Shown here: piece after piece, positions 55,170 to 57,987 of the stretch | Layout: each line of letters opens with the position of its first letter | Position numbering within the stretch: position 1 is the stretch's first letter | The notes under the pieces: model-generated | What the model saw: only the letters and a program-made list of their open reading frames with translations | Database searches by the model: none | What the model was told of the DNA's origin: nothing | IMG/VR virus record: IMGVR_UViG_3300020045_004509 | Coordinates: 1 to 64,000 of that record | Source of the DNA: a virus | Strand: one strand, 5' to 3' | Length of the DNA: 64,000 bases | Program-made: the position numbers and the translations under genes

Positions 55170-56717
55170 TTATATTATTGGTACAACTACTGTATCAGAA
55201 CCAAACACTAAACTATCCCCATTCATTGTTGGGGTTCCATCAGCAACATGCATTTCATCAATAATTCCAGGATCAAACGCATAATCTTCAGCAAAATACG
55301 CATCTGTTAATTGAGCAATATTCTGAACAATATTTCCATCAAACACTACAGAATCATTTCCAAATCCAACATCAAATTCAAATGTCTGTTTATATGGGGT
55401 TACATACAGATTATTTTGATTCAGAACAGATTGAAGATTCTTATCAATTGTCTTACCAATAGAATCTGTTACTACAATAGAATCAAATAGATTCACGTTA
55501 ATAGTATTACATGTATGGATCAGTTCAATTTCATTATTGATGTCAATTACTGCAATCTTATCAAGGAATGAAAAATATTTCACCCCCGCAGGATGAACGA
55601 TCTTATGAACATTCTGATAATCTGCAACTTGATTTTGGGTATGGATTACATATGAAAATAACTGATAATATAATCCGTCATGAAGTCTAATATTAGGGGA
55701 TGAAATGGTTCCCTTATCAGAAATCAATTTACCAAACGTTTTAGAAATCAGGGAAGTATCAAGTTTTATAATAGTTTGAGAATCAAACCACTGTTCAGGG
55801 GAATTTGCATCAGCTTCCCCTGAAAATGGGGAAATAGCAAATGTGTTATTTGAATCATATATCGCATTATTTCCTAAAAATATCACATTATTATTTCCAA
55901 AGGTAATATTAAAAGGAAGGGATTGATTATTTGTCGTGAACCCATAGTCAATGATATTAACTTTTTCTAATGTACCTTGATCCCCAACCCTTGCAACTTG
56001 ACAAATAGTCTTTTTTTGGTTTGTGTCAATAGTAAAACATTGTCCAACTTGCCAATACTTTCCCCCATCTATAACAGAAATAGAAGATGGAAATGTTGAA
56101 AACAATGGCCCAAAGAAATCAAGATGATCGTCAGTATATACTTTTACTAATTGATTTTGTGTTACTGAAAGATCAATATATGATGTAAAGAAGATTCTGT
56201 TTAGGGTAAGATTCTTTTCAACTTTGTTTATTTTGAATTTACGGGGGGAACCATCAAATTGAATGTAGTTTGATGAATCTAAAATGACTCCATCTTGTAC
56301 TTGAACAGTGACAATCGTATCCTGAACCCATCGACCATCAGATGCCTTTAGAATGTTTTCCTTGGGATGTTCAATTGATATTTCTTCTCCATAGACAATT
56401 CTAAAAAGAAGTTTTATGGAGTTTTCTGAACCTTTGGATTTGTATAGATCATAGACATGCTTTGCGACTAATCTACGATCAACAGCAATATTCTTTGGAA
56501 TACCCTTTAGTTCTTCAAAGAATGATTCAATAAAATCTAAAGCTGAACTATCTGAATCGGCAAAAGCTAAAACATCTTGAATGCATTTCTGAATCGCGGT
56601 TTCTTCTTGGAACTCATAGTAGTAATCTAAGAACGAAATAAATAGAGGATTATTATCTCTAATATGACGGGGAATCTGATTTCTAACAAGATGCTTGGCA
56701 GTAAATCCAGTATTCAT
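55170..56717 (-). CDS. Baseplate wedge protein, gp7-like
   Basis: QIPRHIR..PLFISFLDYYYEF, LYKSKGSENSIKLLFRIVYGE, ILKASDGRW, YYQLFSY, HPAG; follows gp6. Confidence 0.8.
   Translation of the reverse strand: MNTGFTAKHLVRNQIPRHIRDNNPLFISFLDYYYEFQEETAIQKCIQDVLAFADSDSSALDFIESFFEELKGIPKNIAVDRRLVAKHVYDLYKSKGSENSIKLLFRIVYGEEISIEHPKENILKASDGRWVQDTIVTVQVQDGVILDSSNYIQFDGSPRKFKINKVEKNLTLNRIFFTSYIDLSVTQNQLVKVYTDDHLDFFGPLFSTFPSSISVIDGGKYWQVGQCFTIDTNQKKTICQVARVGDQGTLEKVNIIDYGFTTNNQSLPFNITFGNNNVIFLGNNAIYDSNNTFAISPFSGEADANSPEQWFDSQTIIKLDTSLISKTFGKLISDKGTISSPNIRLHDGLYYQLFSYVIHTQNQVADYQNVHKIVHPAGVKYFSFLDKIAVIDINNEIELIHTCNTINVNLFDSIVVTDSIGKTIDKNLQSVLNQNNLYVTPYKQTFEFDVGFGNDSVVFDGNIVQNIAQLTDAYFAEDYAFDPGIIDEMHVADGTPTMNGDSLVFGSDTVVVPII
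56592..56627 (-). other. Synonymously diverged self-target of the TnpB guide inside the gp7-like gene
   Basis: gat tac tac tat gag ttc caa gaa gaa acc gcg att; 31/36 identical to 56753->56718. Confidence 0.85.
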
Positions 56718-56900
56718 TATTGCGGTTTCTTCTTGAAATTCATAATAGTAATCATGTTGTTTTATCAGGATTAATAAAACTAACTAAACATTTCAACGAA
56801 TCTACCTTTGGTGTTTCCAGAAAAGGATTTAATAACTCTCGATGTTTGTAATCGGATAATTCTTCCGATGAAAATCCATAAAGATCATCTAGACCTTTAT
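56718..56900 (-). ncRNA. Predicted TnpB omega-RNA: scaffold ~56900->56754, guide from ~56753/56750
   Basis: Overlaps tnpB 3' end; hairpins at 56878-56900, 56851-56869, 56805-56826, 56756-56784, then a target-matching segment. Confidence 0.7.
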
Positions 56901-57987
56901 ATAGTATATTTATAGCAGCATTTAGGTCACGATCATGAACAGTATTACATTCAGGACAAATCCATTCCCGTACCGATAGATTCATAGAATCCATCTTGTT
57001 ACCACAACAAGAACAAGTCTTTGAAGATGGAAAGAATCTATCAATTTGATGAAATGTCTTTCCATACCAATTAGACTTGTATGAAATCATTTTTGTTAAT
57101 GTTGACCAAGCAGCATCATGAATAGATTTAGATAGTTTCCTATTCTTAATCATTCCAGCTACATTTAAATCTTCCATCACAATAGTATCATAATTATTCA
57201 CTAGCCAAGAACTTAAATTGTGATATACAAAATTTCTCTGGTTAGAAACTTTCTGATACAGTCTAGCAACTTTAAGTTTCATCTGCTTGTATCTGGAACT
57301 ACCTTTAACTTTTCTACTAAATGCGCGTTGCGCTTTCTTTAGCTTCGCTTGGGTTTTGCGAAACCATCTAGGATTACTTATTTTCATACCACTTGACATG
57401 ATACAAAGGTCTTTTAATCCTAAATCAATACCGATTGAACGACCAGTATTTTGTTTCAATTCTATAGGTTCTTCAACAAGAATTGAAACAAAATATTGAT
57501 TGGATTTATTTTTGGAAACTGTAACAGACTTAGGTTTACCTTGAAATCCACGATTTACTACCATCTTCATAGAAGTCATTTTTGGAAGTTTGATTCTTCC
57601 TGAATCTAAATCAATACTATCATGGTATCTACCCATAGACGCAAATGGTATTCTAAATGAATCATTAGAAACACCTTTCTTTTTGAACGATGGTCTTCCG
57701 AGTTTTATTTTACGCTTCTTGGAAAAATATTGGGTCTTGAAATCTATCCAATCGCGGGTCTTCTGTTGTAGTGCATATGATATAGCATCATGCATCCATT
57801 CATGCCCCACCATATCTTTGATGATCTTTTCATCTTGGGGAATACACGGTCCTTTGTCGTAGTTATTAAAACTAGCAACAAATTGATTCCATAGAAAACG
57901 TACTGCTCCAAAATTTCTATCAAGAAAGTTAGCTTGATCCTTAGTAGGATAGATTCTATATTTGAATGCCTTTAGAACTGTTTTCAT
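56752..57987 (-). CDS. tnpB: RNA-guided endonuclease TnpB (IS200/IS605 OrfB family), no tnpA nearby
   Basis: KAFKYRIYPT N-terminus; RuvC GIDLG, MEDL, DRDLNAA all intact; Zn finger CSCC/CPEC. Confidence 0.95.
   Translation of the reverse strand: MKTVLKAFKYRIYPTKDQANFLDRNFGAVRFLWNQFVASFNNYDKGPCIPQDEKIIKDMVGHEWMHDAISYALQQKTRDWIDFKTQYFSKKRKIKLGRPSFKKKGVSNDSFRIPFASMGRYHDSIDLDSGRIKLPKMTSMKMVVNRGFQGKPKSVTVSKNKSNQYFVSILVEEPIELKQNTGRSIGIDLGLKDLCIMSSGMKISNPRWFRKTQAKLKKAQRAFSRKVKGSSRYKQMKLKVARLYQKVSNQRNFVYHNLSSWLVNNYDTIVMEDLNVAGMIKNRKLSKSIHDAAWSTLTKMISYKSNWYGKTFHQIDRFFPSSKTCSCCGNKMDSMNLSVREWICPECNTVHDRDLNAAINILYKGLDDLYGFSSEELSDYKHRELLNPFLETPKVDSLKCLVSFINPDKTT

What the first reader, a model, noticed from the sequence alone, without database searches (positions are those of the whole stretch)
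56592..57987. Phage TnpB whose guide matches the neighbouring baseplate gene, with the resident copy synonymously recoded: candidate RNA-guided homing or competitor-exclusion system
Seen: the 36 nt from the tnpB stop to the next ATG (- strand 56753->56718) read gat tac taT tat gaA ttT caa gaa gaa acc gcA atA. The gp7-like gene, 126 bp away (56627->56592), reads gat tac taC tat gaG ttC caa gaa gaa acc gcG atT. Both encode DYYYEFQEETAI, with 31/36 identity and all 5 mismatches at synonymous third positions. The non-coding copy has AT-rich codons typical of this genome, while the gene uses TAC/GAG/TTC/GCG. RuvC D-E-D is intact. Known: TnpB guides are the sequence just 3' of the omega-RNA scaffold, and free-standing T4 Seg/Mob endonucleases cut a neighbouring gene in relatives lacking them while their own allele resists. 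Inference: this TnpB cuts the ancestral gp7 allele of co-infecting relatives, driving homing of tnpB plus the recoded allele or excluding competitors.
Basis: partly seen in the sequence, partly recalled or inferred. Interest (0 to 1): 0.96.

Follow-up and report, generated by a model that had tools for sequence, protein, structure and literature searches.

The report
Stranded phage TnpB aimed at baseplate gene
A phage carries an RNA-guided DNA cutter left over from a jumping gene whose guide matches a differently spelled version of the neighbouring essential baseplate gene, a layout that could let it cut rival phages while sparing itself, though no cutting has been shown.

Summary
The 36 nt after the tnpB stop (56753->56718) repeat codons 31-42 of the next gene (56627->56592). 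They are 31/36 identical and unique in the 122.7-kb record, and all five differences are synonymous third positions. Across 20 other insertions of this TnpB family, conservation ends at TGATTAC, four bases past the stop. The family is IS607-type: relatives carry a serine-recombinase tnpA.

The window copy keeps its RuvC residues and all 39 consensus omega-RNA pairs. It has no tnpA and no left end, and its ATG sits where relatives have the gp7 ATG.

Best reading: the element once entered a gp7 allele after codon 32, and an intact gp7 was later restored downstream. The stranded nuclease is thus programmed against the uninterrupted, common-codon allele. The resident gene differs at guide positions 3, 9 and 12 through rare codons (P about 0.02).

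This is the layout of RNA-guided intronless homing or rival exclusion. No sensitive allele, RNA or cleavage was seen, and this is the only one of 21 family contexts with the pattern. Earlier notes of this scan describe the same layout in other phage genomes.

The parts
57990..59759 (-). gp6-like baseplate wedge gene (589 aa). Its TAA is followed by AA and then the tnpB ATG.
   Evidence: ORF. Pfam Gp6-like_1st 9e-18 and Gp6_C-III 3.6e-07. Junction read.
56752..57987 (-). tnpB, 411 aa, apparently intact RNA-guided nuclease gene.
   Evidence: Pfam HTH_OrfB_IS605, OrfB_IS605 and Cas12f1-like_TNB. D188/E272/D354 and four zinc-finger Cys lie at invariant columns of 32 homologues. E 3.8e-66 to ISDra2 TnpB chains 8h1j/8bf8. 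Single copy in the record.
56748..56902 (-). omega-RNA scaffold, overlapping the 3' end of tnpB and ending 4 nt past its stop.
   Evidence: Alignment of 14 contexts. Consensus fold has 39 pairs, 11 with compensatory changes. The window forms 39 of 39. nhmmer finds one copy in the record at 56902-56749, E 1.1e-39.
56748..56754 (-). Right-end terminus TGATTAC. The family consensus is T[A/G]ATTA[T/C].
   Evidence: Invariant or near-invariant columns, followed by an abrupt loss of similarity in 14 of 14 aligned contexts.
56728..56747 (-). First 20 nt of the guide position (TATTATGAATTTCAAGAAGA). This is codons 33-39 of a gp7 allele written in the genome's commonest codons.
   Evidence: codon usage.
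56718..56753 (-). Copy A of the 36-nt repeat: 6 nt of right end plus 30 nt of gp7 codons 33-42. It ends directly at the gp7 ATG.
55170..56717 (-). Resident gp7-like baseplate wedge gene (515 aa), with a complete N-terminus.
   Evidence: Pfam Baseplate_wedge 2.2e-13. The N-terminal 130 residues align with 14 homologues from residue 1. tblastn hits are annotated as baseplate wedge subunit.
56622..56627 (-). GATTAC (codons 31-32, Asp-Tyr) directly 5' of the near-target. It is identical to the last six bases of the right end.
   Evidence: Asp at this position occurs in 0 of 14 aligned homologues and 0 of 45 IMG/VR relatives.
56602..56621 (-). Resident near-target, 17 of 20 identical to the guide. 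Mismatches are at guide positions 3, 9 and 12 (56619, 56613, 56610).
56592..56627 (-). Copy B of the 36-nt repeat (gp7 codons 31-42).
56907..56914 (-). TATAAATA inside tnpB, just upstream of the first omega-RNA helix. It may be a late-promoter-like start for the guide RNA; this was not tested.
   Evidence: One of 3 matches in the window. The first consensus helix starts at about 56901.

Best explanation
This is the right-hand remnant (tnpB, omega-RNA and flank) of an IS607-family insertion sequence, immobilised between the gp6-like and gp7-like baseplate genes.

Shown:
- The nuclease gene and guide-RNA scaffold are intact.
- The guide position holds codons 33 onward of a gp7 allele.
- A complete gp7 with a different synonymous spelling starts immediately after it.

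Inferred history:
- The element integrated into a gp7 allele after codon 32.
- A recombination with an uninterrupted allele placed a whole gp7 (codon 1 onward) right behind codon 42 of the broken copy.
- The stub of codons 1-32, the left end and tnpA were then deleted. This left the tnpB ATG at the old gp7 start position.

Inferred function:
- TnpB with this guide cuts gp7 alleles of co-infecting relatives that carry the common-codon spelling of the conserved YYEFQ stretch next to a permissive motif.
- The break is repaired from the tnpB-bearing genome. That copies in the resistant allele and, after resection past about 130 nt, tnpB itself. This is intronless homing. If repair fails, the rival is lost, which is exclusion.
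- The resident allele is spared by three mismatches in the first 12 guide positions. It may also be spared by its right-end-like GATTAC in place of a permissive motif.
For: Guide boundary: in 14 aligned contexts, similarity runs to T[A/G]ATTA[T/C] and then stops. 20 distinct right-end flanks were found in all.

IS607 type: relatives L098, L102 and L263 carry a Resolvase-domain gene directly upstream of tnpB. L012 keeps a remnant of it.

Intact machinery: RuvC and zinc-finger residues; the window forms 39 of 39 consensus pairs, and 11 of those 39 pairs show compensatory changes across the family.

Immobile: 2 nt separate the gp6 stop from the tnpB ATG. No tnpA was found in the record, and there is only one omega-RNA copy.

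Spare-start geometry: copy A abuts the gp7 ATG and the spacing is exactly 42 codons. In 16 of 16 relatives checked, the gp6 stop lies -6 to +3 nt from the gp7 ATG. The tnpB ATG now occupies that position.

Coding origin of copy A: all 5 differences are synonymous third positions. By my arithmetic, (1/3)^5 = 0.004 if positions were random.

Resident spelling: the resident uses TAC, GAG and TTC at seed positions. The chance that at least 3 of these 4 codons are non-preferred under genome-wide usage is 0.020. The resident has 3 seed mismatches, whereas 30 of 45 relatives at only 22-41% protein identity have 1 or 2.

Conserved target: the guide covers the most conserved stretch of the protein, with Y32-F36 invariant in 15 sequences.

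From papers:
- Double mismatches in guide positions 1-12 abolish ISDra2 TnpB cleavage (PMC13639567, passages).
- IS607 TnpB cuts the vacated site and drives homing (PMC10690162, passages).
- T4 Seg/Mob nucleases do intronless homing, discriminating by substitutions in a nearby conserved gene (PMC13565253, passages).
Against: - No sensitive allele was found. No gp7 closer than 38-49% identity exists in 5.8 billion proteins and none in IMG/VR.
- The exact motif-plus-guide pattern gave 2 viral and 9 genome hits, none in a gp7-like context.
- Nothing shows that the RNA is made or that the enzyme cuts.
- The permissive adjacent motif (TAM) of this family could not be derived. My first left-end boundary (ATTAY) was undone by further contexts.
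- The right end carries the same GATTAC as the resident gene. Either GATTAC is non-permissive or the element would cut its own guide template. Which holds is unknown.
- Differences at guide positions 27 and 30 are outside a ~16-nt guide, so they are not explained by escape.
- In 4 of 5 differences the resident has the rarer codon. By my arithmetic that is a one-sided sign test of 6/32, which is not significant.
- 3 of 4 seed sites differ against 2 of 6 distal sites, also not significant.
- 0 of 20 other contexts of the same family show a near-copy of the guide nearby, apart from tandem LRR repeats in L263 and a nested tnpB in L013.
- The three-step history is inferred from one genome.
Confidence: 0.5

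Rival explanations
1. Inert scar. The same insertion-and-rescue history holds, but the cassette has no present role. No allele in nature is cut, the gene is simply not yet decayed, and the synonymous differences are ordinary divergence between the two parental alleles.
For: Differences at guide positions 27 and 30 are not expected from escape. No target allele was found anywhere. The pattern is unique among 21 contexts of the family. The codon-direction and seed-versus-distal contrasts are not significant on their own.
Against: A 411-codon frame with every catalytic and zinc residue is kept, and all 39 RNA pairs are kept. The cassette sits between two essential, normally abutting genes (16 of 16 relatives), where dead weight should be costly. 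Trimming to 2 nt and 33 nt spacers suggests that the rest was kept while the transposase and left end were lost. Rare codons fall exactly in the seed (P 0.020).
Confidence: 0.3
2. Self-regulation. The TnpB-RNA complex binds the imperfect site inside the phage's own gp7 without cutting and tunes its transcription, in the manner of nuclease-dead TldR repressors.
For: The target lies 95 nt into the downstream gene on the same transcript direction. Phage-encoded TnpB relatives that act as RNA-guided repressors are in print (10.1101/2023.11.30.569447; only the abstract start in the search listing was seen).
Against: RuvC D-E-D is intact, whereas TldRs are nuclease-dead. There are three mismatches within the first 12 positions, where pairing is most needed. 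The guide has the same sense as the gp7 mRNA, so it cannot pair with that mRNA.
Confidence: 0.07
3. Assembly artefact. The contig joins two strains of a phage population at or near the repeat, so the two spellings never sit on one molecule.
For: The record is a metagenome-derived viral contig, linear and about 70% complete. I could not lay reads on it, because no run was listed.
Against: The two copies differ at 5 of 36 positions and are only 36 nt long, which is too short and too different to mislead an assembler. The frame, the gp7 N-terminus and the tnpB 3' end are all continuous across the region.
Confidence: 0.05
4. The guide is aimed at something other than gp7, such as a host or prophage site, and the likeness to gp7 is a side effect of where the element landed.
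For: Guides of canonical elements are simply the flank of the insertion site.
Against: The exact 20-letter pattern found 9 places in 185,579 species genomes and 2 in IMG/VR. None extended beyond 25 of 36, and none lay in a related gene.
Confidence: 0.03

Closest known systems
IS607-family TnpB with its omega-RNA (CboIStron TnpB; Zedaveinyte et al., preprint PMC10690162, passages read)
   Same: TnpB is linked in relatives to a serine-recombinase TnpA. The guide RNA scaffold overlaps the tnpB 3' end and the guide is the DNA just beyond the right end. The scaffold end resembles the insertion-site motif. The nuclease cuts the vacated site and drives homing.
   Different: Here the ends are AT-rich (T[A/G]ATTA[T/C]). 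The review PMC13565253 (passages) describes GG termini and G-rich motifs for most IS607 members. The window copy has lost tnpA and the left end, so there is no excision to repair. Its target allele is not the vacated site of the same genome but another allele of the adjacent gene.
ISDra2 TnpB (IS200/IS605; Karvelis 2021, PMC8612924, passages; PDB 8h1j/8bf8/8exa)
   Same: The protein is clearly related (E about 4e-66, residues 6-366). It has the same three Pfam domains and the same logic of a roughly 16-nt guide taken from the flank.
   Different: The transposase family, ends and adjacent motif all differ. ISDra2's TTGAT cannot be carried over to this family.
Free-standing homing endonucleases of T-even phages (SegF, SegG, SegB, MobE; intronless homing, as summarised in PMC13565253, passages)
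   Same: A nuclease gene is wedged between conserved essential genes. The proposed cut lies in a neighbouring conserved gene of relatives. Self is distinguished from non-self by a few substitutions. Spread is by co-conversion, or by exclusion of rivals.
   Different: Those enzymes are GIY-YIG or HNH proteins that read DNA directly. Here recognition would be by an RNA guide, and the specificity is written in the genome beside the gene. This is likeness in working, not family membership.
TldR, phage-encoded nuclease-dead TnpB-like repressors (10.1101/2023.11.30.569447 and PMC13418256; search listings only)
   Same: A phage-borne, transposase-less TnpB relative with a guide that matches a gene other than a vacated transposon site.
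   Different: TldRs lack RuvC activity and target host flagellin promoters. This protein keeps D-E-D and matches a coding stretch of a phage structural gene.

Membership tests
TnpB (OrfB_IS605) RNA-guided nuclease | HTH, OrfB_IS605 (RuvC) and zinc-ribbon TNB domains | tested here: met
   Pfam E 2.8e-14, 7.8e-27 and 8.5e-25, all above the curated cut-offs.
TnpB (OrfB_IS605) RNA-guided nuclease | RuvC catalytic Asp-Glu-Asp and CxxC...CxxC | tested here: met
   D188, E272, D354, C325, C328, C344 and C347 are invariant columns in 32 homologues, and the window sequence is the reference row. They align with the GxDxG, xEDL and HDRD motifs of a solved TnpB-like chain. The residue numbers of ISDra2 itself are recalled, not checked.
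TnpB (OrfB_IS605) RNA-guided nuclease | Structured omega-RNA scaffold overlapping the 3' end of the gene, followed by a variable guide | tested here: met
   39 consensus pairs, 11 with compensatory changes; the window forms 39 of 39. Similarity ends abruptly at the right-end terminus in 14 of 14 contexts.
TnpB (OrfB_IS605) RNA-guided nuclease | RNA-guided, adjacent-motif-dependent DNA cleavage | not testable with these tools
   This needs expression and cleavage assays.
IS607-family insertion sequence (complete element) | Serine-recombinase tnpA next to tnpB | tested here: not met
   The gp6 stop is 2 nt from the tnpB ATG, and the 122.7-kb record has no match to a relative's TnpA (the record is about 70% complete). 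Relatives L098, L102 and L263 do have one, with Resolvase hits at 1e-17 to 3e-19.
IS607-family insertion sequence (complete element) | Left end with the family's ATAAATA-containing block | tested here: not met
   That block is present upstream of tnpA or tnpB in relatives. It is absent in the window, where the gp6 coding sequence runs up to the tnpB start.
IS607-family insertion sequence (complete element) | Right end shared with family members | tested here: met
   The window is thus a remnant of such an element, not a complete member.
Free-standing homing endonuclease (intronless homing), by way of working | Nuclease gene inserted between conserved genes that abut in relatives | tested here: met
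   The gp6 stop lies -6 to +3 nt from the gp7 ATG in 16 of 16 relatives. In the window, 1,272 nt of cassette lie between them.
Free-standing homing endonuclease (intronless homing), by way of working | Cuts the neighbouring gene in relatives that lack the nuclease | not testable with these tools
   No close relative was found.
Free-standing homing endonuclease (intronless homing), by way of working | Own allele differs at the recognition site | tested here: met
   There are 3 mismatches in guide positions 1-12. That they confer resistance is inferred from ISDra2 data.
Free-standing homing endonuclease (intronless homing), by way of working | GIY-YIG or HNH protein fold | tested here: not met
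   Pfam shows only TnpB domains. The likeness is functional only.
TldR (nuclease-dead TnpB-like repressor) | Loss of RuvC catalytic residues | tested here: not met
   D188, E272 and D354 are kept.
IStron (group I intron fused to tnpB element) | Group I intron upstream of tnpB | tested here: not met
   An Rfam scan of 55000-59000 at E up to 1 gave only two chance miRNA-model hits. There is no room upstream of tnpB.

The most novel reading that the evidence does not exclude
A natural RNA-guided cut-and-rescue drive in a lytic, T4-like phage. The stranded TnpB cuts the conserved YYEFQ-coding stretch of rivals' baseplate gene. The tightly linked resident allele is immunised twice. First, three synonymous seed changes to rare codons. 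Second, the unique Glu-to-Asp change at codon 31, which turns the flanking pentamer from the AATAY seen in 35 of 45 relatives into the right-end-type ATTAC. That pentamer must be non-permissive if the element is not to cut its own guide template. Together with the similar layouts noted elsewhere in this scan, this would make solo phage TnpBs a class of programmable free-standing homing endonucleases.
Probability: 0.3. Interest if true: 0.88.

Novelty: new variant of a known kind. Interest (0 to 1): 0.68.

Why it matters
Thousands of phage genomes carry solo tnpB genes whose role is unknown. In the library I searched, tested roles are transposon retention in bacteria and, for nuclease-dead relatives, gene repression.

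This locus gives a concrete hypothesis that can be tested at once. The guide, the proposed target spelling, the resistant spelling and a candidate adjacent-motif change are all written within 170 nt of one another.

If it cuts as proposed, it would link two fields: RNA-guided transposon nucleases and the intronless homing of T-even phages. It would also show a natural home-and-rescue gene drive in a virus. Finally, it would explain how phages keep such nucleases after the transposase is gone.

The AT-rich IS607 branch, with its miniature derivatives in large phages, is of interest in its own right for anyone mapping adjacent-motif diversity.

Tried and rejected
Searches for close relatives
- Megablast of 55170-59759 against GenBank phages: no match.
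- tblastn of gp7 and TnpB: only hits below 60% identity.
- IMG/VR scan with gp7 peptides: nothing.
- 5.8-billion-protein search: best non-self hits 38-49%.
- Sequencing runs: none was listed, so no reads could be laid.
DNA of the metagenome gp7 homologues P0002-P0063 was therefore never seen. I used IMG/VR loci instead.

Adjacent motif (TAM)
- I first read ATTAY as the insertion-site motif, from L093 against L012 and from L013 and L102.
- I then rejected that boundary. Five contexts share ACTAAATTT... further upstream, with 0-3 unassignable bases.
- Empty sites were sought among the held loci (nothing) and in five related records (nothing).
- The split LRR gene of L263 did not give a clean junction either.

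Generality
- A 30-nt, at-least-25-match screen of the region after tnpB was run on 158 loci. It gave hits in 26 loci besides the window.
- From the printed pairs, these are far-off repeat copies, opposite-strand palindromes or tandem repeats (L050, L149). I did not examine each in its gene context.
- A peptide-level screen of right-end flanks gave one hit, an L102 paralogue 4 kb away (E 3e-7). Its output was cut and not all of it was read.

Readings rejected
- Chance repeat.
- N-terminal extension of gp7 through copy A: there is no ATG, GTG or TTG between the upstream TAG and 56717.
- Antisense control of gp7 mRNA: the guide has the same sense.
- IStron.
- RAGATH-18-type RNA: no Rfam hit.

Literature
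- No paper describing a phage TnpB aimed at an allele of its neighbouring gene turned up in six searches.
- The cyanophage preprint 10.64898/2026.02.14.705889 (passages) only speculates on homing.
- I did not ask for supplementary files, which are closed. Adjacent-motif tables there (PMC11061315, PMC10690162) might cover this AT-rich IS607 branch.

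
Full report
**What is there**

On the - strand the order is as follows:
- a gp6-like baseplate gene (57990-59759; Pfam Gp6-like_1st and Gp6_C-III);
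- two bases;
- tnpB (56752-57987; 411 aa; HTH_OrfB_IS605, OrfB_IS605 and Cas12f1-like_TNB);
- 34 bases;
- a gp7-like gene (55170-56717; 515 aa; Pfam Baseplate_wedge).

The window is the first 64 kb of a 122,706-base viral record, which is linear, about 70% complete and 35% G+C. It has no near relative among GenBank phages. Its baseplate protein finds only distant T4-like relatives.

**The observation**

Copy A (56753->56718) and copy B (56627->56592) match at 31 of 36 positions, 126 nt apart. With up to 9 substitutions allowed, nothing else in the record matches either copy. No shuffle out of 100 reached the observed 25 of 30 for the part after TTAC.

All five differences are synonymous third positions of gp7 codons 33, 35, 36, 41 and 42.

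126 nt is exactly codons 1-42, so copy A (codons 31-42) is followed at once by codon 1. This is the joint that a spare copy of the gene start would leave.

The resident gene is whole. Its first 130 residues align from residue 1 with 14 homologues. The repeated stretch covers the most conserved block of the protein, with Y32, Y33, Y34, E35 and F36 invariant.

**Where the guide starts**

TnpB homologues 60-78% identical occur in many viral and metagenome contigs. In 14 aligned contexts the DNA is conserved through the stop codon and four more bases, T[A/G]ATTA[T/C]. After that, all likeness ends. A later pattern scan raised the number of distinct right-end flanks to 20.

The right end, and so the scaffold, therefore ends at 56748. 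The guide starts at 56747: TAT TAT GAA TTT CAA GAA GA...

The scaffold folds into 39 consensus pairs, 11 of them with compensatory changes across the family. The window forms all 39. A profile of the scaffold finds just this one copy in the record.

**What kind of element**

Relatives L098, L102 and L263 carry a 197-201-aa Resolvase-domain gene directly upstream of tnpB. L013 has the same arrangement, judged by sequence likeness only, and L012 keeps a remnant. The family is therefore IS607-type, not IS200/IS605-type.

Its ends are AT-rich. The review PMC13565253 (passages) describes GG termini and G-rich motifs for most IS607 members.

The window copy has neither tnpA nor a left end. The gp6 coding sequence runs to 2 nt before the tnpB ATG, and the record holds no TnpA relative. 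RuvC D188, E272 and D354 and the four zinc-finger cysteines sit at invariant columns of 32 homologues. The protein matches ISDra2 TnpB structures at E about 4e-66.

**How the layout probably arose (inference)**

A canonical guide is simply the DNA next to the right end (PMC8612924 and PMC10690162, passages). A guide that reads gp7 codons 33 onward therefore means that the element once sat inside a gp7 allele, after codon 32.

That insertion would kill an essential gene. A viable phage needs an intact gp7, and one begins directly behind codon 42 of the broken copy.

In 16 of 16 relatives checked, the gp6 stop lies -6 to +3 nt from the gp7 ATG. In the window, the tnpB ATG occupies that position (TAA AA ATG). 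This fits a later deletion that removed the stub of codons 1-32, the left end and tnpA. Both starts read ATGAA, a possible microhomology.

All differences between the copies are synonymous. So copy A diverged from copy B while both were coding, or else only the coding copy B changed. Under free drift of a non-coding copy this pattern would be unlikely (by my arithmetic, (1/3)^5 = 0.004).

**Recoded or merely divergent?**

Usage figures come from 77 long ORFs of the record.

| Guide position | Copy A | Usage | Resident | Usage |
|---|---|---|---|---|
| 3 | TAT | 79% | TAC | 21% |
| 9 | GAA | 94% | GAG | 6% |
| 12 | TTT | 72% | TTC | 28% |
| 27 | GCA | 43% | GCG | 9% |
| 30 | ATA | 14% | ATT | 61% |

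Three of the four synonymous sites within guide positions 1-12 differ. The chance that at least three of these four codons are non-preferred is 0.020.

Among 45 IMG/VR relatives that share only 22-41% protein identity, 12 have one seed mismatch to the guide, 18 have two and 11 have three. The resident gene, identical in all 12 residues, is therefore no closer to the guide than most very distant genes. This favours recoding away from the guide.

Three points weigh against it:
- Positions 27 and 30 lie outside a ~16-nt guide.
- Position 30 may be the duplication edge.
- The simple contrasts (4 of 5 rarer in the resident; 3 of 4 seed sites against 2 of 6 distal) are not significant.

I cannot separate escape from allelic divergence. 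Either way the resident is mismatched where ISDra2 TnpB tolerates least: double mismatches in positions 1-12 abolish cleavage (PMC13639567, passages).

**The adjacent motif is unresolved**

I first took ATTAY as the insertion-site motif. Further contexts then showed homology reaching further left, with 0-3 unassignable bases. No empty site was found.

One argument still stands. The right end itself ends in GATTAC and is followed by a perfect match to the guide. In the one IS607 system tested, the scaffold end (UCGG) differs from the permissive motif (TGGG) by one base. The authors give this as the reason the element spares itself (PMC10690162, passages).

By the same logic GATTAC should be non-permissive here, and the resident gene carries exactly GATTAC (codons 31-32, Asp-Tyr). 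Asp at codon 31 is found in 0 of 14 aligned homologues and 0 of 45 IMG/VR relatives. Those have Glu (30) or Gln (15), and the pentamers AATAC (25), AATAT (10), AGTAT (9) and AGTAC (1).

The unique Glu-to-Asp change may therefore be a second layer of immunity. Alternatively, it may be the variant that created the landing site. This is inference only.

**Function**

The cassette has everything a nuclease needs, and nothing a transposon needs in order to move. Its guide covers the most conserved stretch of an essential neighbouring gene, in the spelling that the genome's own codon bias would predict for relatives.

This is the design of the free-standing Seg/Mob nucleases of T-even phages. They cut a nearby conserved gene in relatives and spread by co-conversion or exclude the rival (PMC13565253, passages).

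I put 0.5 on this reading and 0.3 on an inert scar. The rest goes to self-regulation, an assembly artefact or another target.

Against generality, none of the 20 other right-end contexts of this family has a near-copy of its guide nearby. The 24 of 30 match in L263 comes from tandem LRR repeats of the interrupted gene, and the match in L013 from a nested tnpB.

Exact motif-plus-guide matches in IMG/VR (2) and in 185,579 species genomes (9) are chance hits outside any gp7-like gene.

**Relation to earlier notes and to print**

After I had reached the spare-start reading, look-ups of this scan's notes showed the same layout in at least seven other phage genomes: a transposase-less TnpB sitting in a spare copy of the next gene's start. 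A related IS607-type family with an AT-rich insertion motif was also noted. These are unchecked AI notes and do not count as evidence. They do mean that the scan has found this kind of locus before on other DNA.

Six literature searches found no paper describing it. The 2026 review PMC13565253 sets out intronless homing and transposon homing side by side, but in the passages I read it gives no phage TnpB example.

**Verdict**

This is a new variant of known kinds: TnpB homing and intronless homing. It is well defined anatomically and directly testable, but it rests on one genome without a sensitive allele.

Noticed in passing
window 56907-56914 (- strand): TATAAATA, the T4 late-promoter consensus (recalled), lies inside tnpB about 6 nt upstream of the first omega-RNA helix. 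It is one of only 3 copies in 64 kb (7 expected by chance). Family members read GTAAACAT at the same place. It could give the guide RNA its own late start.
   Followed up: partly
L231/L232/L237/L245 (276 nt), L235/L240/L243 (517 nt), L239/L246 (507 nt): Miniature derivatives of the same element occur in contigs of large phages. They have a left end plus the omega-RNA right end but no tnpB, and each sits in its own context. Up to three element copies occur per contig.
   Followed up: partly
L013 1930-2420: The right end of a complete tnpB is joined directly to the last third of a second tnpB copy that has its own right end. This is a nested or tandem insertion, so the first guide reads tnpB sequence.
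   Followed up: partly
L263 4818-7889: A complete IS607-type element (tnpA and tnpB) splits a leucine-rich-repeat-like gene on the opposite strand. The right-end terminus supplies that gene's stop codon.
   Followed up: partly
L093, L012, L013, L098, L102, L263: upstream of tnpA or tnpB: The family's left ends all carry an ATAAATA block (for example GATAAATAAC, CATAAATAGTC). This resembles a T4-type late promoter, so elements living in T4-like phages may borrow late transcription.
   Followed up: no
window 56625-56627 (codon 31 of gp7): Asp (GAT) stands where 59 of 59 relatives have Glu or Gln. It makes the six bases before the near-target identical to the transposon's right-end terminus.
   Followed up: partly
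L102 6231-6320 and 10151-10240: The peptide encoded just after the right end of L102 has a 50%-identical paralogue 4 kb downstream (E 3e-7). The element sits in one member of a small gene family.
   Followed up: no
L116 and L138: Two loci of a more distant TnpB branch share a 30-nt pair (26 of 30) between the region after tnpB and a place about 1.6 kb away. This may be another end repeat or a second case of a guide-like copy.
   Followed up: no
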